From a virus: DNA of 43,946 nt. Below, piece after piece: positions 1 to 43,946 of the stretch. A program made the translations under genes and the position numbers. Below the pieces are notes generated by a model. The model had not been told where the DNA came from. It searched no databases and saw only the letters and a list, made by a program, of their open reading frames with translations. How positions within the stretch are numbered: position 1 is the stretch's first letter; every line of letters starts with the position of its first letter. The stretch spans positions 1-43,946 of IMG/VR virus record IMGVR_UViG_3300013102_000016. The stretch is one strand, 5' to 3'.

Positions 1-123
1 AACCTCCAGCCCCAGCAAGGTCACAGTGTTCCGCTGGTTGAGCTGAAGCGTGAACCCCGTAGTTGCGCTGGCCACAAGCGTCCACACCTGGCTGGACAAT
101 GCTGGTGGCGGCGGCTGAACATT
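1..123. repeat. Terminal direct repeat, copy 1 (circular closure / assembly overlap)
   Basis: Bases 1-123 (aacctccagccccagcaagg...gcggctgaacatt) are identical to 43824-43946. A minus-strand ORF is continuous across the join. Confidence 0.95.
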
Positions 124-876
124 CGGCACCTGAGAGAACGCCGTTGAATAAGTCACGGCGATCTGCCCTGCCGCGCTTGTGGTGCCGGTATAAGTCTCCA
201 GTCGCTTGCTGATGCCCGATGGCCCTTGCGGTCCCGTTGCGCCTGCTGGCCCCTGGATCCCTTGAATACCTTGGGCGCCAGTCGCACCGGTTAATCCCTG
301 CGGCCCGGTAGCACCAGTTAATCCGGTAGCGCCCTGGATCCCCTGCGCGCCCGTATCACCCTTTGCACCTTGCGGACCTGTCGCACCGGTAAGACCAATC
401 GGGCCTTGAGGGCCTGGAACCGTACTCGCCGCGCCAGTTGCTCCCGTTGCGCCTGTTAACCCTTGGATGCCTTGTGGCCCCTGAGATCCAGTCGCGCCAG
501 TATTTCCGGTATCACCTTTGACGCCTTGGATCCCTTGAGGCCCTGCGGCGCCCGTTAGTCCTGTGTCACCCTTGTCGCCTTTTGCACCGACAGGGCCAGC
601 TTCTCCCTGCACCCCTTGAGGGCCTTGAGGACCAGCGGGAACAGTCGAGCTGAGAATGCCAGAGCTGATCTGCAATCCCTGGCCAACAGTGAAGAACTGC
701 GGCAGAACCGTTACGCCGTTGAATCCGAGGATGCCATTGGCGCCACCAGCAGGAATGGTGAGGGTGCGACTCAGCGTTCCGGTATCAGTGGCATTACGCT
801 GATTCATCAGCAGATCGTTGGCGGCACCCAGCGCGAGGCCCGGCAGCAGTAGTGCGAGAGCAATCAGCTTTTTCAT
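1..876 (-). CDS. Collagen-like repeat protein (fibre or secreted protein), N-terminal 292 codons; the gene continues across the circular join to 43761
   Basis: ATG at 876 forms an ATGA overlap with the stop of 873..1247. The ORF is missing from the track because it runs off the window edge. My translation starts MKKLIALALLLPGLALGAAN (signal-peptide-like). Two runs of about 22 G-X-Y triplets follow (GPQGPQGVQGEAGPVGAKGDKGDTG... and GPQGPIGLTGATGPQGAKGDTG...), roughly nt 633-214, separated by AASTVP. A ~90-aa non-collagen C-terminal domain comes last. Confidence 0.85.
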   Translation of the reverse strand, partial: MKKLIALALLLPGLALGAANDLLMNQRNATDTGTLSRTLTIPAGGANGILGFNGVTVLPQFFTVGQGLQISSGILSSTVPAGPQGPQGVQGEAGPVGAKGDKGDTGLTGAAGPQGIQGVKGDTGNTGATGSQGPQGIQGLTGATGATGAASTVPGPQGPIGLTGATGPQGAKGDTGAQGIQGATGLTGATGPQGLTGATGAQGIQGIQGPAGATGPQGPSGISKRLETYTGTTSAAGQIAVTYSTAFSQVPNVQPPPPALSSQVWTLVASATTGFTLQLNQRNTVTLLGLEV

Positions 877-1247
877 GAGGTGGCAACCCTTGCAATGATC
901 TTGTCGGTAGTCGAGACCGTGTTGAATACCACGAGGTCATTGACGTTGAGCGATACGACGTTGTTGGCAACTTCTACGCCGACATCCGATGAAGTGACGG
1001 TGAGTTGGGTGATGGCCTGAATCGCGAAGATGAAGAAGCGCTGGCCCGCCTTGATCCCTGGCGAAAGGATGAGCTGCAAGTCGGCAATAGTCGCAGCTGG
1101 TGACAGCACCACATTGACCACAAGCGCATCGGTCTCGGGGATTTGGATGGCCTCCCCCGAGGCCGGAGAGAACTTGAATTCGGCAGGAGGCGAAGAGTTT
1201 GAGCCTCCACCGAACATTGACCAAGGCCAAGCAAATGGGAGAATCAT
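873..1247 (-). CDS. Hypothetical protein (124 aa), co-translated upstream of the collagen-like gene
   Basis: ORF in the track. Its stop overlaps the collagen-gene ATG (ATGA) and it overlaps the upstream ORF by 4 nt. No motif recognised. Confidence 0.6.
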   Translation of the reverse strand: MILPFAWPWSMFGGGSNSSPPAEFKFSPASGEAIQIPETDALVVNVVLSPAATIADLQLILSPGIKAGQRFFIFAIQAITQLTVTSSDVGVEVANNVVSLNVNDLVVFNTVSTTDKIIARVATS

Positions 1248-1510
1248 TCCGTGAACTCCTGAATGCCGCCGATGAGAATAGTGGCGCCGGCCTTAATCCA
1301 TGCCGAATCAGCCTTGATGCGCCCCCATTCAGAGTTTGGGATCTCGGCGCCCTGGAATGCGCCTGCGGCCGGCTGTGCGCCTTCGAAGGCGACAATGCGC
1401 GTCCCACTACGATTGCAGAAGATGACATCCGTGCCAGGCGCATAACCCGTCACATCGTAAAAATCATGCCAAACCCCGCCAGCAAGCTGAACATCCGGCT
1501 TCATGACCAT
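1244..1510 (-). CDS. Hypothetical protein (88 aa)
   Basis: Track ORF is 1244..1540. The preferred start is ATG 1510 (MVMKPD...), 7 nt after GACAAGGAG. No motif recognised. Confidence 0.55.
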   Translation of the reverse strand: MVMKPDVQLAGGVWHDFYDVTGYAPGTDVIFCNRSGTRIVAFEGAQPAAGAFQGAEIPNSEWGRIKADSAWIKAGATILIGGIQEFTE

Positions 1511-1545
1511 TTGCAAACTCCTTGTCGCTTCCGGCGACATAATCC

Positions 1546-2613
1546 TTATTCATCATCAACCGTTTCCGGAATGATCATGGTGTACGTGCAGCGGCAATTG
1601 TAGTCGGTGCCAGGCAAGAGGTATAGGCCGTCAACGTCAGAATAGAGGCCTTCAGCGAGATCGAACTCCTTGCCTTCGCGATCCTCATGCGACGGTCGCA
1701 CCCGCTCATCACCAGCGGTCTCCCATATGGCCTTGGTGATCCCGAGGTTTTGGGCCCGGATCTTGGTCGTGATCGAGTTGTAGTTCTGCACCTGATTGCG
1801 GGCCAAAAACTTGGCATGATTCTTTCGCTCGGCCGCGATACCGTCAAACTGGCTGACGATGGTGTCGAGTGATTCACCTTGGCTCATAGCGAACAAGGTG
1901 TTGTTCGTGAACTTCTGGAAGGTGTCATCACGCAGGGTTTTGATCCACTGCGCGGTTTCGGCGACCAGTGCGTTGGTGGTCGACTTCATACCCTCCTTGG
2001 CGATCAGGTCTGTGACGCTAATGCCGGTCTTGGCGGCAACCCGCTTGTAGAATTCTTCCTTGGACTTCTTGTCGAGTTTGCCGAGCGCCTTCTGACTGAT
2101 CGCGTCAATGCGGTCATCGCTGAATTGCTTGAGGATCGACTTGGCCGCAGCCTTCGACAGGCGCAGGAGGATCGCGGCGAAGTTTCCTGTTTGGGCGTCG
2201 GCAAATTCAAGCACGCGGTCGGTGTCGTAACGAATGACATCCGAAAGCCCTCGCATCTCATAGCGCTCAGTTCGGTACACGGGGATTTTCACATCCTCCC
2301 ATGCCCCCTCAGTTCGCGACCATGCGACGCCATCGGCATCAGTGAATGACATATCGCGCTCAACATACTTCTTGCTGTCGCGGTAGTGGTCGACGACCTT
2401 TCTTTCCCTGGACAGACGAACCACGATAGGCGAAAGATCCGCAAACTTCTCCACCGTCCTAACCTGTAGCTGGCCAAGCACCTGATTCTGAAATCGCTTG
2501 GCCATCGTATCGACCATGAACTCGATCATGTCGGCCAACTCGTTCTCGATGCTGCGCGGCGACTTTGGCGCCTTGATTGGCGTCGGCTTTGCGGCGGTCA
2601 GTTGGCGCTTCAT
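1546..2613 (-). CDS. Head morphogenesis protein, Mu F / SPP1 gp7-like
   Basis: 355 aa. The C-terminal segment GDERVRPSHEDREGKEFDL...LLPGTDYNCRCTY matches the Phage_Mu_F signature. It overlaps the portal gene by 4 nt. Confidence 0.85.
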   Translation of the reverse strand: MKRQLTAAKPTPIKAPKSPRSIENELADMIEFMVDTMAKRFQNQVLGQLQVRTVEKFADLSPIVVRLSRERKVVDHYRDSKKYVERDMSFTDADGVAWSRTEGAWEDVKIPVYRTERYEMRGLSDVIRYDTDRVLEFADAQTGNFAAILLRLSKAAAKSILKQFSDDRIDAISQKALGKLDKKSKEEFYKRVAAKTGISVTDLIAKEGMKSTTNALVAETAQWIKTLRDDTFQKFTNNTLFAMSQGESLDTIVSQFDGIAAERKNHAKFLARNQVQNYNSITTKIRAQNLGITKAIWETAGDERVRPSHEDREGKEFDLAEGLYSDVDGLYLLPGTDYNCRCTYTMIIPETVDDE

Positions 2614-6421: not shown

Positions 6422-6500
6422 TGGTGGGGATCACAGGAATCGAACCTGTACGACATACTGTCAGCCTTCGAAGCCGCGTCTACCATTCCGCCATCTCCCC
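6422..6500 (-). tRNA. tRNA, class-II-like; anticodon probably CGA (Ser); non-canonical anticodon arm
   Basis: Minus strand: GGGGAGAUGGCGGAAUGGUAGACGCGGCUUCGAAGGCUGACAGUAUGUCGUACAGGUUCGAUUCCUGUGAUCCCCACCA. It has a canonical T arm (ACAGG-UUCGAUU-CCUGU), a GG-containing D loop, an encoded CCA and a ~12-nt variable region. However, the helix closing UUCGAAG is only 3-4 bp, and positions 6:67 and 7:66 are G.A/A.G mismatches. Confidence 0.6.
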
Positions 6501-6525: not shown

Positions 6526-6600
6526 TGCCATCGTGGATGGAATCGAACCATCCGTTGCCTCTACGCGAGGTGGTATTGCCACTATACGAACTTGATGGCA
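6526..6600 (-). tRNA. tRNA-like gene, non-canonical (possible pseudo-tRNA or decoy)
   Basis: Minus strand: UGCCAUCAAGUUCGUAUAGUGGCAAUACCACCUCGCGUAGAGGCAACGGAUGGUUCGAUUCCAUCCACGAUGGCA. The T arm (GAUGG-UUCGAUU-CCAUC) and D arm (GUAU-AGUGGCA-AUAC) are good. The only anticodon-region helix is CCUC-GCGUA-GAGG, with a 5-nt loop. The acceptor pairs only as CAUCAAG/CACGAUG (5 of 7), or as a 10-bp extended stem. No CCA is encoded. Confidence 0.4.
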
Positions 6601-6639: not shown

Positions 6640-6716
6640 TGGCGCGAATGAAGGGTTTCGAACCCTCGGCCTCTTGCGTGACAGGCAAGCGCTCTAACCA
6701 TCTGAGCTACATCCGC
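6640..6716 (-). tRNA. tRNA-Asp (anticodon GUC)
   Basis: The minus strand folds by hand into a full cloverleaf: GCGGAUG UA GCUC AGAUGGUUA GAGC G CUUGC CUGUCAC GCAAG AGGCC GAGGG UUCGAAA CCCUU CAUUCGC G CCA. Confidence 0.92.
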
Positions 6717-6779: not shown

Positions 6780-6808
6780 ATAATCACCCATCACCAAAAC
6801 TATGTCAA
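6780..6808 (-). promoter_or_regulatory. Sigma70-type promoter for the tRNA cluster (TTGACATAGTT family)
   Basis: The minus strand reads TTGACA-tagttttggtgatgggt(17)-GATTAT, about 60 nt upstream of the tRNA-Asp 5' end. Confidence 0.6.
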
Positions 6809-15954: not shown

Positions 15955-16857
15955 TTGGCCTATACCCTTCACAACATCGCCACCGACAAAGAAAACACCA
16001 CCGCCAAGCGCGCCGACTCGATCAAAGCGCAGCTCAGCAAAATCAAGATCGTCAACGGCTTCAACGAGCGCGATTTCCAACGTGAAGACGTGCGCCTGCA
16101 TATCGCGTCAATCATTTCGTCACTGATCGCTGGCGAGCCGATTCCTGCGCTGGTTGTCTGGACGAATCCAGAAACCGGCGATATCGAGCTGGTTGATGGT
16201 GAGTGCCGCTACTGGGCCTACACCGATTTCGCAGCGGAATATCCCGATAAGTTCGACGGCTATGTCAGCGTTGTTCCGTACCAGGGCACTCCGGCTCAGC
16301 GCAAGGCCATGGTGGCCAAGAGCAACAGCCAATTGCCGCTGGATCCCGTTCAGCGCGGTCGCGTCTATCTGTCTCTGCGTGACGAATACGGCATGAGCCG
16401 GCAGGACATCGCGTCCGAGATGGGCAAGTCGCTGGCTCACGTTGATCAGCATCTGTTGCTGGCCAGCGGGGGTGAAGAAGTTCACGCAGCTGTTGGCGCT
16501 GGCGTTATCTCCGCAACCGAAGCCGTCAAGCTGGTACGCGATCATGGGGCTGATGCGCCTGCTGAGCTGGAGCGCCGCAAGGAGGCAGCCAAGGAGATTG
16601 GCAAGGGCAAGGTGACTGCGAAGGTTGCGGCGCCGAAAGCTCCGAGTCGGCCGAAAGTGGATATGGTTGTTTCGAATGCGGTTGTGCTGGTCAGTCGGCT
16701 GACTGCCGAAACTTTGCGCGACATTGATCGCCCCGAGGATACTCAAGTCCGCGTCAGTTCGCACGCCCTCGCCGACCTCATCATGGCCGTTCGCGAAATG
16801 CAGCAAGCCGGCAAACCGCTGGATGCTGACCGCCAGGTTGAATTGCCAATCGAGTGA
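15955..16857 (+). CDS. ParB/KorB-like DNA-binding protein (300 aa)
   Basis: The TTG start at 15955 follows GACAGGAGCAA (15938-15948). The ParB N-domain motif is IELVDGECRYWAY. A central HTH-like segment is GMSRQDIASEMGKSLAHVDQHL. No ParA partner is present. Confidence 0.7.
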   Translation: MAYTLHNIATDKENTTAKRADSIKAQLSKIKIVNGFNERDFQREDVRLHIASIISSLIAGEPIPALVVWTNPETGDIELVDGECRYWAYTDFAAEYPDKFDGYVSVVPYQGTPAQRKAMVAKSNSQLPLDPVQRGRVYLSLRDEYGMSRQDIASEMGKSLAHVDQHLLLASGGEEVHAAVGAGVISATEAVKLVRDHGADAPAELERRKEAAKEIGKGKVTAKVAAPKAPSRPKVDMVVSNAVVLVSRLTAETLRDIDRPEDTQVRVSSHALADLIMAVREMQQAGKPLDADRQVELPIE

Positions 16858-29762: not shown

Positions 29763-30115
29763 CAGATGATAATCTCTTCGTTGAATTCTTCGTCAAAAAT
29801 CGTGCCAAACGCAAGCATTATAGTGGCATTGCGGGTGCTTGTCTTGACTTCGATTTCAAGCTTGGTGATGGTCGTAACACCATCGGTTGACAGGGTTACG
29901 CGTTCGACGGCGCGCAGGATCTCTTCTTTGGTATCTCGGCGGCCGAGCAGGTCGATCCAGTCGATATTGGCATCAACGTCAAGGAAGAAATCGGTTCGGA
30001 AGGATTTCAGACGAGTGACCACATTCTGACGCACGGCATCGCCGCGAGAAACGTAGACGGCCAGTCCTCGGCCAAACCGCCAATCACCGTCCTCATCAAG
30101 TCCTGATACGCGCAT
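29762..30115 (-). CDS. Small baseplate protein (gp25/W- or XkdS-like, 117 aa)
   Basis: Position is between the spike and baseplate J genes. Typical size. Confidence 0.5.
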   Translation of the reverse strand: MRVSGLDEDGDWRFGRGLAVYVSRGDAVRQNVVTRLKSFRTDFFLDVDANIDWIDLLGRRDTKEEILRAVERVTLSTDGVTTITKLEIEVKTSTRNATIMLAFGTIFDEEFNEEIII

Positions 30116-30153
30116 GTCATCACCTGCAAGAGCTATGCCAGCATCTTACATCA

Positions 30154-30759
30154 TCACGCGACGTTTGTGATTATGCCGTGAACAACGGTTACGTTCCGGC
30201 TATCACCGGTTCGAAATACACCAGTCCAGCCTGGAACACCGCCTACAGAGTAGGTTGTGGAATCCGTGTTCAGGCTCACGTCGAGATTTCCAGTCAGCGT
30301 GTAGTTGCCGGTATGGATGTAGTTGCCGGTCACCGTTGAGTCACCAAACCGCTCGATGGTCGCAGGGATGGTTTTCGCCATGGAAGCAGGGGATACGCCG
30401 ACCAGGGCGAAACAGTCGCTATAATCATGCATGCGCTGTTCGATTGGCGGGACGTTGTCTGCGCCGCCATACCAGCGGTCGAAAGATCGCTCGCTGACCA
30501 GCAGGAGGCAGTAGTCGCCAACAGCCAGAGGGTGCGCATCGTAGCTGGTGCCGCCACTGAGGAACACTGGCGGCACAGAGGGGAACACTGGGAGCTGAAT
30601 GGCTGCGCCGTCGACCACGCGCTGGATAACCGGCTGACAGTCGATGGTGATTGAGCCGACGGCGGTGATCTTGGCGACGACGATGGTGTGGGTATTCGCA
30701 AGCGCCGTGATGATACCGTCGTTCATTACATCAGTGAGTTCTTCTTTCTTGGCGGTCAT
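30154..30759 (-). CDS. Baseplate central spike / gpV-like protein (201 aa)
   Basis: GDYCLLLVSERSFDRWY...RMHDYSDCFALVG resembles the phage baseplate assembly protein V / Mu gp45 OB-fold region. Confidence 0.6.
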   Translation of the reverse strand: MTAKKEELTDVMNDGIITALANTHTIVVAKITAVGSITIDCQPVIQRVVDGAAIQLPVFPSVPPVFLSGGTSYDAHPLAVGDYCLLLVSERSFDRWYGGADNVPPIEQRMHDYSDCFALVGVSPASMAKTIPATIERFGDSTVTGNYIHTGNYTLTGNLDVSLNTDSTTYSVGGVPGWTGVFRTGDSRNVTVVHGIITNVA

Positions 30760-31640
30760 CGTGGCACCACATAGTTTTCGGCAATTTCACCGGTTACGCG
30801 CTGGAACCAGTCGCTACCGTCGAAGTCGCCACTGTACGTTATCAGGGTACACTTGTAGATGCCATTGCGGTGCGGTGCGGTGACTGAGATCAACTGGTAA
30901 AGGCCCCCGACCTTGATCGAAGGATTCAGGAAGGTCGTGATCGTCACCTCCTTTTTGTCGGCCTCTGGCGTGTTGATCAGGCCGGTTTCAGCGCTGACCA
31001 CTGGAGTATATCCAGACACAACCTCATTGCCGCCAAGAATATTCAAGCGCTCGTCGTCGATGAACCAGCGCTGATCGGGGTCGAGCATGTCCTGAATGGT
31101 CTGCATTGAGTTGCCGACCAGCACCTTGGGTCGGCTGATATCAGCCTGGGCGCCGATCTTGCCCTTCTTGGTGTTCGGCATGGTGCCCAGCACCGCATCG
31201 ACGGCAGCGGCCTTGCTGGTCACTGAGGTGGACACAAAGCCGCGCAGGAAGTCTTCGCCGCCATCCATAGCTGAAATAGTCGTGACGAACTGGCCGTCAT
31301 TCTCGCGAACGCTGCCAGCTTCGTCGATGGATCCGCGAAAGATGGTTTCCAGCCGGCCTTCATAGCCGATCTCCAGCAGCACAGGGAAATAACCCTTATT
31401 CTGATTGGAGGTCGGTTTGTCTTTGCCGTCCTTGTCCTTCTCAGGCTTTTCGTCTGGATCGCGCACAAGTCGACGCCGCTTGTCCTCGTTCAGGCCGTCA
31501 ACTTTGATCGTGGCCTTGTTGAGATCGGCCTTGTCCGACTTGTCCACGCTGAAGCGAATACGGAATGGCGGCAGGATGGTGACAGCCTGCGAGCCAATCC
31601 CGATTGTTAGGCGATAGTCTCGCAGGAATCTGTCGACCAT
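30756..31640 (-). CDS. Baseplate hub-like tail protein (294 aa)
   Basis: Positioned immediately upstream of the spike gene with a 4-nt overlap. No firm motif recognised. Confidence 0.5.
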   Translation of the reverse strand: MVDRFLRDYRLTIGIGSQAVTILPPFRIRFSVDKSDKADLNKATIKVDGLNEDKRRRLVRDPDEKPEKDKDGKDKPTSNQNKGYFPVLLEIGYEGRLETIFRGSIDEAGSVRENDGQFVTTISAMDGGEDFLRGFVSTSVTSKAAAVDAVLGTMPNTKKGKIGAQADISRPKVLVGNSMQTIQDMLDPDQRWFIDDERLNILGGNEVVSGYTPVVSAETGLINTPEADKKEVTITTFLNPSIKVGGLYQLISVTAPHRNGIYKCTLITYSGDFDGSDWFQRVTGEIAENYVVPR

Positions 31641-31691
31641 TTCAGCGTTTCCCGAGGTTTCGCAGGTGGAGGAGCATGTAGATGGTGGCGA

Positions 31692-32330
31692 TCATTCCTC
31701 ACCCTCCACGATTTCGAATTTGCGGTAGCCGGCGTCGTATGCAGCTGCGAAGATTGGTGGCAGACAAGTCGTATTCGTCTCACTTCTCCACCAATCGCCG
31801 CAGTCGTAGGCCATTTGCAGAATGGCCTTTTCTCGTTCTTCCGCCGCGATCTGCTCGGGCGTGCGAACCGGCCCGCACATATCAGCACGGAAGCACATAC
31901 AGGCACCGGCAGCATCCTCGACAGCAACCATTTCATAGCCGTTCACGTTGACGAAGGTGGACAGAACTTTACAGTTCGTGCCGATAAAGCTTTCTGCGCC
32001 TTCTACCACGCCGCGACAGGTTTTGTTGTGGATCTGGACGTAGATGCCAATAGGCGGCTGGCCTTCGCCGTGCCATTCTGCTTGGATAGCCAGCGGGGGG
32101 TATAGCGCATCAACTGCGTCCCGCCATTCTTCGCGGGTGACGACCGGGTAAGGGTCACGCTCAGCGTGATGGGTTTTAAGCTCAACTTTTGGCGCAAGCG
32201 AATGCGCCCCCATCGGATGATCTTCAGGAAAGCTTTGGTACAGCTCGTTATCAACCTGCGATTGAGTCAGCTGCTCAACACCTTCCGGCCACTCCTTCAG
32301 CTCCATCGCCAAAATATCAACCAGTTTCAT
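31692..32330 (-). CDS. Accessory (moron) protein, 212 aa, unknown function
   Basis: Third gene of the promoter-driven cassette. WHGEGQPPIGIYV...FRADMCGPVRTPEQIAAEEREKAI...AYDAGYRK is a pattern I associate with non-structural prophage accessory proteins. Confidence 0.65.
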   Translation of the reverse strand: MKLVDILAMELKEWPEGVEQLTQSQVDNELYQSFPEDHPMGAHSLAPKVELKTHHAERDPYPVVTREEWRDAVDALYPPLAIQAEWHGEGQPPIGIYVQIHNKTCRGVVEGAESFIGTNCKVLSTFVNVNGYEMVAVEDAAGACMCFRADMCGPVRTPEQIAAEEREKAILQMAYDCGDWWRSETNTTCLPPIFAAAYDAGYRKFEIVEGEE

Positions 32331-32875
32331 GCTGCACCGCCTTGCGACTTCAATCGAGCAATGAATTGATCGCGACTCTCATCGTCGCGCTGCCAAAGGC
32401 CGCGCATGCGGGCCATTGCATCCAATGCATCCCCCTCCGCAACGGTCATCGCAAATCGAATTTCCGGGTGACATGCATTATCAACCGCCCGCCGAAACGT
32501 CAACGGATCACGCACACCTTTCATCACCGCATTATTCCCCCCGCTGCCCGAGATAATCACGTCGCCATAACCAAAGATGCGACCCAACATCCCCTGCTTG
32601 ACCGATACCGATTCAACCTTGGCCAGCCGGATTTCAGCAGTATCGCGCATGATCACGCCGGACTTGCGGATGACGCGCTTGCTGGTAATGCCCATCTCGG
32701 TCGACCGGATCTTCAGCCAGGCGTACAGCAACAGCATCGCGCTGATCGGCAGGCAGATGATCGACACGCCGAAGATGACGGCTGCGCAGTAGATGTGGAA
32801 CAGCGACCACTTGGAGATTTTGCCTTCGGCCAGCAGGGTTTCGCCGGCGGCCAAGGTTTGGGTGATGTAGGTCAT
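32327..32875 (-). CDS. Membrane protein with bacterial PH (bPH_2, YdbS/YdbT-like) domain (182 aa)
   Basis: Track ORF is 32327..33031. The preferred ATG is 32875 (ATGA overlap, AGGAGA SD). GETLLAEGKISKWSLFHIYCAAVIFGVSIICLPISAMLLLYAWL (two TM helices) is followed by STEMGITSKRVIRKSGVIMRDTAEIRLAKVESVSVKQGMLGRIFGYGDVII. Confidence 0.7.
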   Translation of the reverse strand: MTYITQTLAAGETLLAEGKISKWSLFHIYCAAVIFGVSIICLPISAMLLLYAWLKIRSTEMGITSKRVIRKSGVIMRDTAEIRLAKVESVSVKQGMLGRIFGYGDVIISGSGGNNAVMKGVRDPLTFRRAVDNACHPEIRFAMTVAEGDALDAMARMRGLWQRDDESRDQFIARLKSQGGAA

Positions 32876-33177
32876 TTCGATTCTCCTGTTATGGCTTTGG
32901 CGATTGCGGCTCGGGCTGGCGCGGTATTGATGATCGGAATCGGTTGAGAAAAAGCGGCAACCAGATTCCGGAGCGCCTCCAGCAGATCCGGAGCGGCAGC
33001 GATTAGTTTGGCATCCTGTGGCGACATGCAAACAGAAGTGCCGTTGATTGCGCTGGTGTCTTTGTTGAAAATCGGGTGCGGCATTCCAGATCCTGAGCGA
33101 ACCTCAAACCGCTGAACAGCAAAGTTGCTGCCGGAAACGTGCTTCAGAACCCAAGGGCCTGGAGTGTGGCTTTTCAT
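32872..33177 (-). CDS. Accessory protein, 101 aa (PGPW...AKLIAAAPDLLEAL type)
   Basis: First gene behind the 33243 promoter. HTPGPW and AKLIAAAPDLLEAL are hallmarks of a widespread small phage protein of unknown function. Confidence 0.65.
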   Translation of the reverse strand: MKSHTPGPWVLKHVSGSNFAVQRFEVRSGSGMPHPIFNKDTSAINGTSVCMSPQDAKLIAAAPDLLEALRNLVAAFSQPIPIINTAPARAAIAKAITGESK

Positions 33178-33214
33178 AATTCGTATCCCTATAAGCGCCT
33201 CATTGCGCCAGCGA

Positions 33215-33243
33215 ACTATCGTACAGGATAATCATTATGTCAA
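33215..33243 (-). promoter_or_regulatory. Sigma70-type promoter of the TTGACATA family inside the tail module
   Basis: The minus strand reads TTGACA-taatgattatcctgtac(17)-GATAGT. The -35 contains the TGA stop of 33240..33581. Confidence 0.6.
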
Positions 33244-33581
33244 GTCGGAACTTCCAATCCTCTGCGCTCCTGCATCTCTTCGGCGGTCACGAAATACAGC
33301 TCGCACCGGCCCTCGCTGAAGTCACCGATTCGAAACGGTGCCAACCCTGAGCTATCAGTGGTCACGCAAAAGAAATCAAACGGCCAGTTCAGCGCCTGGA
33401 TATGCAAGCAGCCCAGGCTCAGCATGAAGCCGTTGTAGGTCACGTTGCGCCAGCTCACATTGAACGCCCAGAACTGCGAAACCTGATAGAAGTTCAGGGT
33501 CAGCACGATCTCTTCATCATCGACAAGCAGCACATGGCGCTGGCTTGGTTCGTCCGTGATATTGATTATCTGATAAGCCAT
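33240..33581 (-). CDS. Tail/baseplate-associated hypothetical protein (113 aa)
   Basis: ORF in the tail module downstream of the TMP-distal gene. Confidence 0.55.
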   Translation of the reverse strand: MAYQIINITDEPSQRHVLLVDDEEIVLTLNFYQVSQFWAFNVSWRNVTYNGFMLSLGCLHIQALNWPFDFFCVTTDSSGLAPFRIGDFSEGRCELYFVTAEEMQERRGLEVPT

Positions 33582-33584
33582 CCG

Positions 33585-34361
33585 TTATCTCCCGAGAACA
33601 GCAGTAAGCACGGATTTCTGTTTCTTGGCTCCCGCCCCATCACCAGACTTCGGCGACTGCACGCCCTTGTCTTTCGTTCCCTGGGTCTGGCTCTTCACGG
33701 CGGGGGCGGGTTTCTTGTAGAAGCGCCCTGCATCCGTGTAGATCGTCTTGGCAATCCGAAATTTCTGCGCCGTCAACGAGAATGTCAGGGCCTTGCGCTG
33801 GTTGTCACGCGTGATCGTCACATCATTTATCGCCATGCTTTCGTGATTGCGGTACGGCATCGAAATTGTTGTGAGTTGCTTGCCGTAATGCAGCGACTCG
33901 ATGAAGTCCACGAACTGTTCGCGAATCGGCTTCGACCCCGACTTGTTGCCGGTGAAGTCGCCAGGATTTTTACCGAGCGAAATCTGCTCGTTGATGCCCC
34001 TGCGACGATCTCCGGCGCTATCCTCGACCTTGGCCGCACGCTGATCTTGCGACGGAGTGCGCTTGGGTAGGAAAGAGTTCGTCAGTCCAACAGTTGGCAG
34101 TCTCTTATCGGACTTGCTCGGCGTTGGCGCGTTAAAGAACACGTCGGCCACGTCACCGTTGATCGTGATCTTGATCGGCGCGTTGATCAGGTGGTCGCCG
34201 ATATAGCTGCCATCCTCGACGACCGACGTCGGCGAAGCTGTGCTGTATTGCGTCTGGTCACTGACCCTGGCGAACAGGGTGAAACCACCTATGCCAACCT
34301 CTTCCAGTGAAGACGACGATAGCGCCTGATCTTCGCCGGCTTTCAGATCCTGAATGCTCAT
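33585..34361 (-). CDS. Tail protein distal to the tape measure (258 aa)
   Basis: ATGA overlap with the TMP stop. Assigned by position only. Confidence 0.55.
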   Translation of the reverse strand: MSIQDLKAGEDQALSSSSLEEVGIGGFTLFARVSDQTQYSTASPTSVVEDGSYIGDHLINAPIKITINGDVADVFFNAPTPSKSDKRLPTVGLTNSFLPKRTPSQDQRAAKVEDSAGDRRRGINEQISLGKNPGDFTGNKSGSKPIREQFVDFIESLHYGKQLTTISMPYRNHESMAINDVTITRDNQRKALTFSLTAQKFRIAKTIYTDAGRFYKKPAPAVKSQTQGTKDKGVQSPKSGDGAGAKKQKSVLTAVLGR

Positions 34362-35959
34362 CGGCCACCTCGGTTAACCTGGGTCTTGGCGGTCTTCAAT
34401 TGATCCTGCAAAGCGTTATCCACGGCGGCGCCTGCGGCTTTCGGATCGCTGCTGGCGATATCTATTTTGATGTCTTGCTTGATCTGACTGTTATTGACCG
34501 ACGTGTTGCCGGCTGGCGTCATCGCCACGGCATCGTTCGGACTCATGCCTGGCACATCCCAAGGGTCTTGCCCGCTGCCGCTTGGCAGGGGAGCTGCGTT
34601 GGCGGCCATCTCTGTTGATGGAGAGCCACCAGTGCTGATCAGGTCAACCGCCCAGTCTGGCAGAATCTTTGTCGCCGCAGATTTGATACCGCCAAGGATC
34701 TGGCTGAAGGCGGCGCCGATGAAGTCGAATAGCCCAAGGAAGATGTTTTTGATGCCCTCGCCTACTGACCCGAATGCCGCCAACAGGGAATCAAGTGCGT
34801 CACTCCAGTTGCCCTTGAACAGGGAAATAACCGCATCAAAAAGATGGACGAATGCATCAAAGAACGGTTCGCCAAAGGTCAGGATCTGCGCGAACATGGC
34901 CTTGAATGCATCAACGATACCCTGAAGTACCGGCACGATGTCCCAGCCGAAGAACTCCATGAAGAAATCTGCGATCACGGACTGGCCACCGTCGAGAGCG
35001 GTCAGCAGGTCATCAACAATCAGTAGCAGCGCGACGATAGCGGCGGTGATCAGCACGACAGGAGACAGAAGGAAAGCCATAACCGTGGCTAAACCGCCCG
35101 TCGCAAGCTGGGCTATTACGAACGCACCGGCCAACGCCAGGGCAATCGGCGTCATGCGCACAAAGAAGCCGGCAACCGACTGGATGACCTCCCCTAACCA
35201 CTGGAGGCCGCCCTTGATCAGGTCTTGGTTGGCGGTCAGGAATTCAACAAAGCCGTCCGTGATCTTCTGCGTGGCTGGCGCCAGATTGATTGCGATCTGC
35301 TGGCTGAGTGCCGCCGCCGCAAATTTGGCAACGCCGAGCGAATCCTGGAAGTCTGCCGCTGCTTGGGCCTGCTCAGTGGTGACAATGCCAAGCTGGCGAG
35401 CGGTTCCAATCAGTCCGTCGATCTCTTCGGTGGTAGCGTTGAGCAATTGAAGCGTCGACGGATCCAAGCCTAGCGCCGCAATGATGGATTTCTGTGTGCT
35501 TTTATCAGTGCCCAGCCTTGCAAATGATTCGCGTAACTCGTTGAACAGAACGTCGGCAGTCTTCACGTTGCCGCTGGCATCCTTGACGCTGATGCCAAGC
35601 TCTTCGAAAGCCTTCTTGCCCTTGCCGAGGCCGCGAGCAGCGTCACCCGACACCTTCGAAAGACCGGCAAGACTTGCGCTCATTGCCTCAGCGCTGGAAC
35701 CAGAAAGCTCAGCGGCGAACCCCAGTTCCTGAATGCTCTCGACCGTGATGCCGGTTTCGGTGCTCATGTCCAGCAGCGAGTCGGCGGCCTGAGTGTTCGC
35801 GGAGACGAACGCAACCAGGCCGCCAGCAGCGCCAATCACAGCAGCTCCGAAGCCGGTAAGCAACGCCAGGGACAGTTTCAGGTTCTCGTTGAACTCACGC
35901 TGCGGCGCAAGATCCCCGACAAAGCTGAATTTTGTGACCAGCTCGTTAACGACCGCCAT
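34358..35959 (-). CDS. Tape measure protein (533 aa)
   Basis: Located after the chaperone genes. Ala/Gly/Leu-rich with central hydrophobic segments (ALALAGAFVIAQLATGGLATVMAFLLSPVVLITAAIVALLLIV) and helical repeats. Confidence 0.8.
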   Translation of the reverse strand: MAVVNELVTKFSFVGDLAPQREFNENLKLSLALLTGFGAAVIGAAGGLVAFVSANTQAADSLLDMSTETGITVESIQELGFAAELSGSSAEAMSASLAGLSKVSGDAARGLGKGKKAFEELGISVKDASGNVKTADVLFNELRESFARLGTDKSTQKSIIAALGLDPSTLQLLNATTEEIDGLIGTARQLGIVTTEQAQAAADFQDSLGVAKFAAAALSQQIAINLAPATQKITDGFVEFLTANQDLIKGGLQWLGEVIQSVAGFFVRMTPIALALAGAFVIAQLATGGLATVMAFLLSPVVLITAAIVALLLIVDDLLTALDGGQSVIADFFMEFFGWDIVPVLQGIVDAFKAMFAQILTFGEPFFDAFVHLFDAVISLFKGNWSDALDSLLAAFGSVGEGIKNIFLGLFDFIGAAFSQILGGIKSAATKILPDWAVDLISTGGSPSTEMAANAAPLPSGSGQDPWDVPGMSPNDAVAMTPAGNTSVNNSQIKQDIKIDIASSDPKAAGAAVDNALQDQLKTAKTQVNRGGR

Positions 35960-40616: not shown

Positions 40617-40642
40617 CAAAATAGGTGGCGCATCCTTGCGCC
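40617..40642 (-). terminator. Hairpin after the major capsid gene (attenuator or partial terminator candidate)
   Basis: The minus strand reads GGCGCA-AGGA-TGCGCC followed by ACCTATTTT. Confidence 0.4.
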
Positions 40643-43376: not shown

Positions 43377-43530
43377 CAGTTCCATCGGTGCCGGTTTTGG
43401 CCGGCGGAGTCATGGCAATTACTCCTCTTCAGATTGAGCAGCGGCCACTCATATGGGTCGGCTGTGTGACAAAACAATGTCTTTGCACTGACTCAGCCCC
43501 AATGAAGGGGCTTGAGGTGGGTGGGGTTGG

Positions 43531-43701
43531 TTAGCGGTCACGCGACTCGACTATGAATTGGACTACCGGTATTCCAGGGTTTTGAGCCTTTGCAAACTCG
43601 TACCCGCTCTTAACCGCAAATTCCATGTCTGGCGCCTCATAGCTGAATTTGTGGTAGGCCGCACCGCCTGCGTACTTGACCCGCAAACTGTATTTATTCA
43701 T
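43531..43701 (-). CDS. Small protein (56 aa) in its own promoter-terminator unit
   Basis: Below the track cutoff. ACGGAGCAAGACGAG precedes the ATG at 43701. Translation MNKYSLRVKYAGGAAYHKFSYEAPDMEFAVKSGYEFAKAQNPGIPVVQFIVESRDR. Confidence 0.5.
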   Translation of the reverse strand: MNKYSLRVKYAGGAAYHKFSYEAPDMEFAVKSGYEFAKAQNPGIPVVQFIVESRDR

Positions 43702-43735
43702 CTCGTCTTGCTCCGTTGTTCGTTTCGGTTGAGCA

Positions 43736-43764
43736 AGATTATGCCGAGATAATAACTATGTCAA
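43736..43764 (-). promoter_or_regulatory. Sigma70-type promoter, exact TTGACATAGTTATTAT copy on the minus strand
   Basis: The minus strand reads TTGACA-tagttattatctcggca(17)-TAATCT. The -35 contains the TGA stop of the collagen-like gene. Confidence 0.65.
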
Positions 43765-43946
43765 CGCTCAATAACGATTATTTGCGCAGCCGAGCCGACT
43801 ACAGGAACCGTAGCGCCCAGCACAACCTCCAGCCCCAGCAAGGTCACAGTGTTCCGCTGGTTGAGCTGAAGCGTGAACCCCGTAGTTGCGCTGGCCACAA
43901 GCGTCCACACCTGGCTGGACAATGCTGGTGGCGGCGGCTGAACATT
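43761..43946 (-). CDS. C-terminal end of the collagen-like protein gene (43824-43946 duplicates 1-123; the unique tail is 43761-43823)
   Basis: Reading on from base 1 into 43823 gives ...TLLGLEVVLGATVPVVGSAAQIIVIER, with stop TGA at 43763-43761. The whole protein is about 312 aa. The stop codon lies inside the TTGACA of the next promoter. Confidence 0.8.
   Translation of the reverse strand, partial: NVQPPPPALSSQVWTLVASATTGFTLQLNQRNTVTLLGLEVVLGATVPVVGSAAQIIVIER
43824..43946. repeat. Terminal direct repeat, copy 2
   Basis: Exact copy of bases 1-123. Confidence 0.95.

What the first reader, a model, noticed from the sequence alone, without database searches (positions are those of the whole stretch)
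31692..33243. Three-gene accessory cassette with its own TTGACATA-type promoter, wedged into the tail/baseplate operon
The minus-strand tail module is otherwise contiguous and tightly overlapped. Between the tail gene ending at 33240 and the baseplate-hub gene (31640) sits a copy of the genome-wide promoter motif. It reads TTGACATAATGATTAT, arranged as TTGACA-17 bp-GATAGT, at 33243-33215, and its -35 overlaps the upstream stop codon. Three ATGA-coupled genes with no structural signature follow. The first encodes a 101-aa PGPW/AKLIAAAPDLLEAL-type protein. The second encodes a 182-aa protein with two TM helices and a bacterial PH domain (YdbS/YdbT-like). The third encodes a 212-aa protein. No terminator follows, so the cassette reads into the baseplate genes. 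The same promoter type otherwise sits in front of replication and early genes. These genes could therefore be expressed on a different schedule from the virion genes around them. This is the classic position and architecture of a moron. A membrane bPH protein with two soluble partners is a reasonable candidate for superinfection exclusion, anti-defence or host manipulation, and I know of no described function for it.
Basis: partly seen in the sequence, partly recalled or inferred. Interest (0 to 1): 0.72.

Follow-up and report, generated by a model that had tools for sequence, protein, structure and literature searches.

The report
Promoter-led accessory cassette in tail operon
A small phage carries, wedged between two baseplate genes, a block of non-structural genes with its own promoter; its constant core is a membrane protein and a partner of unknown function, an ordinary kind of phage add-on that is well defined enough to test.

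Summary
On the minus strand, a TTGACA-17-GATAGT promoter (33243-33215) overlaps the stop codon of the plug gene. It is followed by three ATGA-coupled genes of 101, 182 and 212 aa. No terminator lies before the hub gene at 31640.

The promoter 16-mer belongs to a repeated class in this genome: 9 matches against 0.21 expected by chance.

Comparison of about 60 related tail modules shows a clade-specific insertion. Every relative with a hub at least 69% identical has the promoter, a conserved leader, the bPH membrane protein (B) and the SH3-like protein (C) at this junction. Relatives with a hub at most 63% identical, including Yersinia phage fEV-1, have the plug gene overlapping the hub gene. 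The one exception is L122/L123, which carry an unrelated insert there.

The first gene (A, PF27050) is a swappable passenger. B tracks the structural genes in identity, while C diverges much faster.

The cassette is only partly a classic moron. It has no terminator and no GC shift, no lysogeny genes were found, and it is conserved in all close relatives. The same promoter class also precedes the scaffold and capsid genes.

Function is unproven. The best guess is an early-expressed, inner-membrane accessory module acting in exclusion or membrane protection. It is a new member of a known kind, of moderate interest.

The parts
33215..33243 (-). Sigma-70-type promoter, TTGACA-17-GATAGT. Its first 16 nt (TTGACATAATGATTAT) belong to the phage's repeated promoter class. 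The spacer contains the 11-bp palindrome ATAATGATTAT.
   Evidence: The consensus scan scored 10 of 12. The motif is enriched 9 against 0.21 expected. It is invariant or nearly so at the head of the cassette in 12 relatives. That includes L098, where the upstream context is entirely different.
33195..33208 (-). Conserved leader element GCGCAATGAGGCGC, which could form a 4-5 bp hairpin near the predicted 5' end. It is followed by a conserved AGGGA ribosome-binding region.
   Evidence: It is invariant in all 12 aligned relatives except for the central loop base. It is unique in the window. The predicted fold of -9.9 kcal/mol is not significant against shuffles, z = -1.4.
32872..33177 (-). Gene A, 101 aa. 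It is a PF27050 (Phage_P22_Y8K6) / phrog_1273 small phage protein with the HTPGPW and LIAAAPDLLEAL motifs. It occupies the variable first slot of the cassette.
   Evidence: phrog_1273 matches at E 1.7e-13. Homologues, and the 100%-identical 70-aa public gene call, carry a precomputed PF27050 assignment. In relatives the slot holds a different gene or is empty. The AF2 model is weak (pLDDT 68) and has no fold match.
32327..32875 (-). Gene B, 182 aa. It is a YdbS-like membrane protein with an N-terminal hydrophobic hairpin (about residues 23-54), a bPH_2 domain (57-128) and a variable C-terminal tail. It is the constant core of the cassette.
   Evidence: Pfam bPH_2 matches at E 3.8e-14 and phrog_3707 at E 5.8e-32. 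The hydropathy peak covers residues 28-52. It is present in all relatives with a hub at least 69% identical, at 66-90% identity. More than 100 close homologues lie on contigs of about 40-44 kb.
31692..32330 (-). Gene C, 212 aa. It is translationally coupled to B. It has a conserved N-terminus (MKLVDILA..WPEG), a central SH3/KOW-like barrel and C-terminal helices (RTPEQIAAEER...YDAGYRK). It is the second constant component and evolves fast.
   Evidence: It matches phrog_3483, phrog_7798 and phrog_24216. There are 343 unnamed homologues. The AF2 model has pLDDT 87.5. Foldseek finds only generic SH3-like folds and uncharacterised phage proteins. A 4-nt ATGA overlap with B is seen in every relative where both ORFs were read out in full. 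Identity is 31-62% where the hub is 69-98%.
31642..31695 (-). Candidate micro-ORF of 17 codons (MIATIYMLLHLRNLGKR). It is ATGA-coupled to the stop codon of C and ends 1 nt before the hub start codon.
   Evidence: The translation is. The same 17-codon frame occurs in L003, L089 (same contig as L095) and L091 (same contig as L097), with hydrophobic-for-hydrophobic substitutions. It is absent from other relatives. The substitution pattern is not decisive for coding.

Best explanation
This is a clade-specific, non-structural accessory cassette. It sits exactly at the plug|hub junction of the tail operon of a roughly 44-kb fEV-1-like dwarf myovirus.

The conserved unit has four parts.
1. A sigma-70-type promoter of the phage's own class.
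2. A conserved leader and ribosome-binding site.
3. B, a YdbS-like membrane-anchored bPH protein.
4. C, a translationally coupled SH3-like-domain protein.

The first coding slot, occupied here by A (PF27050), is exchanged between relatives by recombination right at the start codon. Small hydrophobic ORFs sometimes follow C.

There is no terminator on either side. The cassette is therefore transcribed both by read-through of the late operon and from its own promoter. That promoter also feeds the hub, baseplate and fibre genes downstream.

The inferred mechanism is as follows. B inserts into the inner membrane with its bPH domain and tail in the cytoplasm (positive-inside rule). There it is joined by C. 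C's conserved C-terminal half would be the constant interaction module, and its swappable N-terminal half the specificity module. Together they would alter the infected cell's inner membrane. The most likely effect is to block entry of superinfecting phage DNA, or to protect the membrane against premature permeabilisation.

The anatomy, the insertion history and the conservation pattern are shown by the data. Expression timing, membrane topology, the B-C interaction and the phenotype are inferred. I put about 0.85 on the architectural part and about 0.3 on the specific exclusion/membrane-protection function.
For: Anatomy and promoter.

Insertion history:
- The plug gene overlaps the hub gene in fEV-1 and Vibrio PP270.
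- The same holds in about 40 metagenomic relatives with a hub at most 63% identical.
- All loci with a hub at least 69% identical carry B and C at the junction.

The promoter and leader travel with B. They are conserved in 12 relatives even when the first gene differs or is absent (L103, L104). They are also conserved when a 691-aa gene separates them from the plug gene (L098).

B identity (66-90%) tracks the structural proteins. C identity (31-62%) does not, and C's N-terminus switches between two types.

The B-C ATGA coupling is seen in every relative where both ORFs were read out in full.

None of A, B or C matches a structural family, and PHROGs files B's family under 'moron, auxiliary metabolic gene and host takeover'.

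In Ackermannviridae, the homologous bPH gene ends an early nucleotide-metabolism operon (DexA, dCMP deaminase).

Precedents exist. HK97 gp15 is an inner-membrane exclusion protein encoded by a moron inside a tail operon (PMC3594210). YdbS/YdbT-type bPH proteins act in export of and tolerance to membrane-active peptides (PMC8657885).
Against: There are no expression, localisation or phenotype data.

There is no sequence or fold similarity to any known exclusion, defence or anti-defence protein. PADLOC gave nothing, PDB sequence searches gave nothing, and Foldseek gave only generic SH3-like folds.

The same promoter class precedes the scaffold and capsid genes. Early expression is therefore not guaranteed.

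Conservation at a fixed baseplate position in all close relatives would also fit an assembly-linked role.

The B-C interaction could not be modelled with the tools available. The tight 30-residue hydrophobic hairpin makes the predicted topology uncertain.
Confidence: 0.6

Rival explanations
1. The promoter is mainly an internal booster or re-initiation promoter for the distal late genes (hub, spike, wedge, fibre, lysis). The cassette genes simply ride on it, with no separate schedule and no coordinated function.
For: No terminator lies between C and the hub gene. The same promoter class sits at 43764-43749(-), just ahead of the protease/scaffold and capsid genes. All the promoters share the same spacer element, which suggests common regulation.
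Against: Relatives without the cassette have no room for a promoter at this junction, because the plug gene overlaps the hub gene, and they manage without one. In L098 the promoter stays with B rather than with the plug gene or the extra 691-aa gene. B is under purifying selection across the clade. This reading is not exclusive of the best explanation.
Confidence: 0.25
2. B acts like its YdbS/DdE relatives and handles small membrane-active peptides or proteins. It could work as an antiholin-like lysis-timing regulator. It could also confer immunity to a phage-encoded hydrophobic peptide, such as the 17-aa micro-ORF or the 62-66-aa two-TM ORFs that follow C in relatives.
For: B has the YdbS architecture (2 TM plus one bPH) and a Pfam bPH_2 match. 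DdE/DdF, LnqC/D and aureocin Orf7/8 are experimentally linked to export of and tolerance to leaderless bacteriocins (PMC8657885). Small hydrophobic ORFs follow C in the window, L003, L089, L091, L088 and L103. The phage encodes two holin-family proteins.
Against: There is no YdbT-like partner. The micro-ORF and the small TM ORFs are absent from many relatives that keep B-C. The lysis genes lie about 6 kb away. Coding of the micro-ORF is not established.
Confidence: 0.2
3. The cassette is an anti-defence module, with C's fast-evolving N-terminal domain targeting host immune proteins.
For: C diverges far faster than its neighbours and swaps N-terminal domains. C and PF27050 family members occur in accessory-gene arrays of many unrelated phages.
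Against: There is no similarity to known anti-defence proteins. A membrane anchor is unusual, though not unknown, for such inhibitors. Nothing links the cassette to any particular defence system.
Confidence: 0.12
4. B and C are clade-specific tail or baseplate assembly factors, or minor virion proteins. On this reading the cassette is not accessory at all.
For: B and C hold a fixed position between the plug and hub genes in every close relative. B's identity tracks the structural proteins. Read-through from the late operon is possible.
Against: Sister lineages with the same baseplate gene set lack them. L105 is one example, with wedge proteins 71-76% identical. There is no structural-family match. 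B is a membrane protein. The cassette has a dedicated promoter, C diverges strongly, and the first gene is interchangeable.
Confidence: 0.08

Closest known systems
HK97 gp15 moron (Juhala et al. 2000; Cumby et al. 2012; reviewed in PMC3594210)
   Same: It is extra DNA inside a tail operon that is absent from related phages. It has its own promoter. It encodes a small inner-membrane protein with no structural role, and gp15 blocks DNA entry by superinfecting phages.
   Different: There is no sequence relationship: gp15 is YebO-like with a single TM, and B is bPH_2. HK97 is temperate and the moron is expressed from the prophage. Here no lysogeny genes were found, and there is no terminator and no GC shift. 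The cassette has several genes with a conserved two-gene core, and it is fixed across a whole clade.
YdbS/YdbT-type bPH membrane proteins (B. subtilis YdbS/T; DdE/DdF of enterocin DD14; LnqC/D; aureocin A53 Orf7/8; PMC8657885)
   Same: B has the YdbS layout: an N-terminal TM hairpin plus one PF03703 bPH domain. Its shortest relatives are about 140 aa, close to the 141-159 aa of that group.
   Different: There is no adjacent YdbT-like 3xbPH partner and no ABC transporter or bacteriocin gene. The host is probably Gram-negative. B is paired instead with an SH3-like soluble protein. Identity to the characterised members was not measurable here.
Ackermannviridae 'membrane-flanked domain' protein (Vi01 gp11; phrog_3707)
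   Same: It belongs to the same PHROG family. It is 33-37% identical to B over residues 1-139. It is phage-encoded, and its function is likewise unknown.
   Different: It is encoded at the end of an early nucleotide-metabolism operon in 155-160-kb phages. It is followed by a 66-aa ORF rather than a C homologue, and it lacks the variable tail.
T4 Imm/Sp and P22 SieA superinfection exclusion proteins
   Same: They are phage-encoded membrane proteins that block DNA entry by superinfecting phages. T4 shows that virulent phages use them too (own knowledge; SieA in PMC10883804).
   Different: There is no homology, and the resemblance is functional analogy only. None of them is paired with an SH3-like partner.
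PF27050 (Phage_P22_Y8K6) / phrog_1273 small phage proteins
   Same: A carries the family's HTPGPW...LIAAAPDLLEAL...ARAAIAKA signature.
   Different: The family has no known function, so membership adds no mechanism.

Membership tests
Moron (as defined in PMC3594210, after Juhala et al. 2000) | Extra DNA at a position where related phages have none | tested here: met
   The plug gene overlaps the hub gene in fEV-1, Vibrio PP270 and about 40 loci with a hub at most 63% identical. However, the insert is present in all roughly 12 close relatives with a hub at least 69% identical.
Moron (as defined in PMC3594210, after Juhala et al. 2000) | Own promoter | tested here: met
   This is met at sequence level only. 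The evidence is TTGACA-17-GATAGT, membership of a motif class enriched 9 against 0.21 expected, and conservation across relatives independent of context. No transcription start site data exist.
Moron (as defined in PMC3594210, after Juhala et al. 2000) | Own terminator | tested here: not met
   There is no terminator-like site on the minus strand in the 51 nt between C and the hub gene.
Moron (as defined in PMC3594210, after Juhala et al. 2000) | GC content different from surrounding genes | tested here: not met
   Cassette GC is 0.545-0.585, against 0.52-0.58 in the flanks.
Moron (as defined in PMC3594210, after Juhala et al. 2000) | Expression from a repressed prophage | not testable with these tools
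   No integrase or repressor family was found among the ORFs scanned. The nearest cultured relative, fEV-1, was isolated as a lytic dwarf myovirus (PMC8309999).
Pfam PF03703 bPH_2 / YdbS-like | HMM score above the gathering threshold | tested here: met
   The score is 53.1 bits against a cut-off of 22, E 3.8e-14, over residues 57-128.
Pfam PF03703 bPH_2 / YdbS-like | Two transmembrane helices preceding the bPH domain | tested here: inconclusive
   There is one continuous hydrophobic stretch at about residues 23-54, with Leu-Pro at 42-43. The Kyte-Doolittle peak is 2.1-2.4. This fits a tight hairpin, but no topology predictor or structure was run.
Pfam PF03703 bPH_2 / YdbS-like | Adjacent YdbT-like (3xbPH, 6 TM) partner gene | tested here: not met
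   The neighbours are A (PF27050) and C (SH3-like). There is no second bPH protein in the window's cassette or in the relatives' cassettes.
PHROG 3707 'membrane-flanked domain' | Profile match | tested here: met
   E 5.8e-32, covering residues 1-135 of B against positions 1-133 of the 142-position profile.
Pfam PF27050 Phage_P22_Y8K6 (gene A) | Profile match | tested here: inconclusive
   The local Pfam copy gave no hit for A and seems to lack the model. The precomputed annotation assigns PF27050 to the 100%-identical 70-aa public call P0122 and to nearly all of the listed homologues.
Known superinfection-exclusion proteins (HK97 gp15/YebO, T4 Imm, P22 SieA) | Sequence or fold homology | tested here: not met
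   Pfam, PHROGs, NCBIfam, PADLOC, PDB sequence and Foldseek searches gave no such hit.
Known superinfection-exclusion proteins (HK97 gp15/YebO, T4 Imm, P22 SieA) | Blocks DNA entry by incoming phage when expressed | not testable with these tools
   This needs expression in the host and a phage challenge.
Virion structural protein | Match to structural families, or presence in particles | tested here: not met
   No structural family matches A, B or C. Presence in particles cannot be tested here.

The most novel reading that the evidence does not exclude
B and C form a previously unrecognised two-component phage membrane system. A YdbS-like bPH anchor would recruit a modular SH3-domain adaptor. 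The adaptor's interchangeable N-terminal domain (MKLVDILA type or IDWSKAPEGA type) would set target specificity. The system would be switched on from an operator-bearing promoter, and would either exclude related dwarf myoviruses or neutralise membrane-acting host immunity. This would give the first function to phage bPH_2 proteins (phrog_3707), which are also conserved in Ackermannviridae, and to the large C family.
Probability: 0.15. Interest if true: 0.7.

Novelty: new member of a known kind. Interest (0 to 1): 0.35.

Why it matters
If the inferred role is right, it would assign a function to three widespread 'dark matter' phage families:
- bPH_2 / phrog_3707;
- the C family, with more than 340 clusters;
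- PF27050.

It would also show how a virulent dwarf myovirus keeps a promoter-led swap slot for accessory genes inside its baseplate operon.

In practical terms the comparative series gives a ready-made experiment. Natural variants exist with no first gene, with different first genes, and with different C N-termini, and a sister lineage lacks the cassette entirely. Otherwise this is an ordinary example of phage mosaicism.

Tried and rejected
- **Megablast.** A search of 30000-35000 against 50,697 phage records found no match. Comparison therefore had to go through proteins.
- **PADLOC and NCBIfam.** They gave nothing, apart from a sub-threshold PuhB hit for B (27.9 bits against a cut-off of 110). 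That hit only reflects the bPH domain.
- **PDB sequence searches.** Single sequences and profiles of A, B and C gave nothing credible.
- **Foldseek on the C model.** Against the PDB the best E-value was 2e-3, to generic SH3/KOW-like barrels (PetP, YorP, eS4, nitrile hydratase beta). I rejected this as functional evidence. Against BFVD it found only uncharacterised phage proteins.
- **AF2 model of A.** It was too weak (pLDDT 68, pTM 0.44), and Foldseek gave nothing below E = 2.
- **Leader hairpin.** The fold is not significant against shuffles. Rfam finds nothing in the cassette.
- **SHOCT-like tail on B.** I considered this because SHOCT co-occurs with bPH_2 (PMC3581485), but there was no Pfam support, so I dropped it.
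- **B-tail / C-type pairing.** I considered that the type of B's tail might co-vary with the N-terminal type of C. By inspection it does not: the window and L003 pair a similar tail with a different C type than L104 and L097 do.
- **Failed look-ups.** Two encoding-contig requests (P0006, P0008) failed because the queue was full. They were replaced by scans of viral contigs.
- **Weak motif sites.** The 19330(-) site (3 mismatches, inside a helicase gene on the other strand) and the 21508(+) site (too close to the start codon) were judged doubtful as promoters.
Full report
**Observation**

Three genes lie on the minus strand: A (33177..32872, 101 aa), B (32875..32327, 182 aa) and C (32330..31692, 212 aa). 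Both junctions are ATGA overlaps.

Upstream are the tape measure gene, a Dit-like gene and a gene for a 113-aa Pam3_gp18 plug-like protein. Downstream are an E217_gp41-like hub, the spike, the sheath initiator, the wedge and the fibre genes.

The consensus scan finds TTGACA-17-GATAGT at 33243..33215. The plug stop codon lies inside the -35 hexamer. No terminator-like site lies on the minus strand between C and the hub gene.

The 16-mer TTGACATAATGATTAT has 9 matches with up to 3 mismatches in the window, against 0.21 expected, and no shuffle reached 9. Six sites have 2 mismatches or fewer and a plausible -10 element: 10231+, 15071+, 20254+, 23075+, 33228- and 43749-. Each also has a start codon 41-52 nt downstream of the motif.

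**What kind of genome this is**

The window is almost the whole of a 43,964-bp metagenomic contig.

- The minus strand carries terS, terL, portal and a MuF-like gene. Continuing across the window ends, it carries protease/scaffold, decoration, major capsid, sheath, tube, tape measure, baseplate, fibre, two holin-family genes and an Rz-like spanin.
- The plus strand carries helicases, an endonuclease VII-like gene, an exonuclease VIII-like gene and a ParB/KorB-like HTH protein. A primase-like gene lies on the minus strand within that region.
- No integrase or repressor family was found among the ORFs scanned.

The nearest named phage is Yersinia phage fEV-1, with a hub 48% identical. It is described as a lytic dwarf myovirus (PMC8309999). 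Homologues of A in Pseudomonas chlororaphis and P. koreensis genomes suggest a Pseudomonas host. That is inference only.

**Is the promoter class 'early'?**

Mostly, but not exclusively. Four of the six good copies face plus-strand replication-region genes. The copy at 43764..43749(-) lies inside the late operon, in front of a 56-aa ORF and the protease/scaffold and capsid genes.

All copies share a conserved spacer, TAGTTATTAT. In the cassette copy it reads as the perfect 5+1+5 palindrome ATAATGATTAT, which looks like an operator. The timing of the class is therefore unknown.

The plug stop codon overlaps the -35 and there is no terminator on either side. The cassette can thus be transcribed by late read-through as well as from its own promoter. 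That promoter necessarily also feeds the hub-to-lysis genes.

**Comparative test (the key result)**

I collected tail modules related through the hub protein, using a single-sequence scan and then a profile scan of viral contigs. I added contigs found through C.

- **Hub at least 69% identical.** Every locus that reaches the junction carries B and C between the plug and hub genes. There are about 12 distinct genomes: L003, L006, L092, L094-L098, L100, L103 and L104. The gaps are 1.2-3.4 kb.
- **Hub at most 63% identical.** In almost every locus the plug gene abuts or overlaps the hub gene. These are L105, fEV-1, the Vibrio phages and about 40 metagenomic loci. A few loci have small apparent gaps because the plug hit is fragmented.
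- **The clear exception.** L122/L123 carry an unrelated 1.2-kb insert at the same junction.

The cassette is therefore an insertion that is fixed within one roughly genus-level clade. It is not a recent singleton. The junction itself appears to be a permissive site.

**Anatomy of the conserved unit**

Across the clade the following are invariant or nearly so:

- the promoter;
- a -10-like GAT(A/T)(G/T)T;
- the leader element GCGCAATGA-N-GCGC;
- a purine-rich ribosome-binding region (AGGGA in the window);
- the ATG.

The first coding slot differs between relatives.

| First slot | Loci |
|---|---|
| PF27050-type gene | window, L006, L092, L094, L100 |
| 'LRDYFAAKAM'-type gene | L003, L095, L096, L100 |
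| Both types | L100 |
| Unrelated 67-aa ORF ahead of a PF27050-type gene | L006 |
| 108-aa ORF of neither type | L097 |
| Nothing (the promoter leads straight into B) | L103, L104 |

In L098 a 691-aa tailspike-like gene follows the plug gene. The promoter and leader sit after it, directly before B. The promoter, the leader, B and C therefore form one unit, and A is a passenger.

The B-C overlap is ATGA in every relative where both ORFs were read out in full. B's first roughly 135 residues are 66-90% identical to the window's B, similar to the structural proteins. Its C-terminal tail varies, giving total lengths of 138-190 aa.

C is only 31-62% identical where the hub is 69-98%. Its N-terminus switches between an MKLVDILA..WPEG type and an IDWSKAPEGA type. 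The central barrel and the RTPEQIAAEER...YDAGYRK end are retained.

After C, some relatives have a 17-codon hydrophobic/basic micro-ORF; in the window it lies at 31695..31642. Others have 62-66-aa two-TM ORFs.

**What the proteins are**

- **B** is a YdbS-like bPH_2 protein (Pfam E 3.8e-14; phrog_3707 E 5.8e-32). It has one hydrophobic hairpin of about 30 residues, followed by a strongly basic stretch. By the positive-inside rule this puts the bPH domain in the cytoplasm. More than 100 close homologues lie on contigs of about 40-44 kb, after which identity drops to about 35%. The homologues at 33-37% identity in Ackermannviridae end an early nucleotide-metabolism operon.
- **C** belongs to a large unnamed phage family of 343 clusters, covered by phrog_3483, phrog_7798 and phrog_24216. 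A confident AF2 model (pLDDT 87.5) shows a small N-terminal alpha/beta domain, an SH3/KOW-like barrel and C-terminal helices. Foldseek finds only generic barrels in the PDB (best E 2e-3) and uncharacterised proteins in BFVD. Outside this clade, C homologues sit in other accessory slots, for example after the capsid gene of an E217-like phage, and often next to PF27050 genes. They are never next to a bPH gene.
- **A** is a PF27050 / phrog_1273 protein. Its model is weak and gives no fold match.

None of the three proteins hits PADLOC, NCBIfam or PDB sequences in a meaningful way.

**Mechanism**

The data show a promoter-led, clade-fixed, non-structural cassette. Its core is a membrane-anchored bPH protein plus a translationally coupled, fast-evolving SH3-domain partner.

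I infer that B sits in the inner membrane and C binds it on the cytoplasmic side. C's variable N-terminal module would act as the specificity element. The pair would modify the infected cell's membrane.

The most likely purpose is exclusion of superinfecting phage DNA, or protection against premature membrane permeabilisation. HK97 gp15 provides a precedent: an inner-membrane exclusion protein encoded by a moron inside a tail operon (PMC3594210). T4 Imm/Sp shows that virulent phages use such proteins too (own knowledge).

The only experimental biology for YdbS/YdbT-type proteins is export of and tolerance to leaderless, membrane-active peptides (PMC8657885). That keeps a holin-timing or peptide-immunity rival alive, particularly given the small hydrophobic ORFs downstream of C. 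Anti-defence and assembly roles are less likely but not excluded.

**Comparison with the moron concept**

Two criteria are met: extra DNA relative to relatives, and an own promoter (sequence level only). Two are not met: an own terminator and a deviating GC content. Prophage expression cannot be tested and is unlikely here.

The cassette works like a moron-type accessory unit but is an atypical member of the category. I rate it a new member of a known kind, with moderate interest. Its main value is the clean natural series of variants for experiments, and the chance to assign a function to phage bPH_2 proteins and the C family.

Noticed in passing
window 2613..1 and 43946..43413, minus strand (across the window ends): This looks like a second accessory island in the late operon. 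About 2.1 kb lies between the MuF-like head-morphogenesis gene and the protease/scaffold gene. It holds ORFs of 168, 48, 44, 49 and 56 aa, none of those tested matching a family, and a copy of the same promoter class at 43764..43749(-). In fEV-1 the two flanking genes are only 57 nt apart.
   Followed up: partly
window 6422..6500 and 6640..6716, minus strand; promoter 6808..6780(-): tRNA-Ser(cga) and tRNA-Asp(gtc) genes lie upstream of terS. They are preceded by a TTGACATAGTTTTGG...GATTAT promoter that shares the first half of the class motif. The stretch between them (about 6540-6600) also looks tRNA-like, but ARAGORN did not call it.
   Followed up: partly
window 16090..16857, plus strand: A 255-aa protein carries ParB/KorB-type HTH domains (PF17762, E 2.6e-6). 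It is a candidate regulator for the near-palindromic ATA(A/G)TNATTAT element shared by the promoter class. It competes with an overlapping 247-aa minus-strand ORF that matches no family.
   Followed up: no
window 31642..31695, minus strand; also L003, L089/L095, L091/L097: A 17-codon hydrophobic/basic micro-ORF (MIATIYMLLHLRNLGKR) lies between C and the hub gene. Frame and length are kept in four relatives, and it is absent from the others. Coding is not proven.
   Followed up: partly
L098:577-2652: One relative has a 691-aa tailspike/pectate-lyase-like gene inserted between the plug gene and the cassette promoter. The same junction therefore also accepts a structural or receptor-binding gene.
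   Followed up: no
L122:1654-2806 (identical insert in L123): A distant relative (hub 43% identical) has an unrelated 1.2-kb insert at the same plug|hub junction. It has several TTGACAAAA / CAACATCGTTGAC repeats and a 219-aa ORF. This looks like an independent use of the junction.
   Followed up: no
L001:11813-12772 (fEV-1 g29): Yersinia phage fEV-1 has an annotated reverse transcriptase gene just after its tail fibre gene, which may indicate a diversity-generating retroelement. I found no counterpart in the window.
   Followed up: no
window 40628..40641, minus strand: GCGCAAGGATGCGC lies immediately after the major capsid gene stop codon. It differs by one base from the cassette leader element GCGCAATGAGGCGC. 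It may be a small stabilising hairpin or a chance match, since about 3.7 matches with up to 2 mismatches are expected by chance.
   Followed up: no
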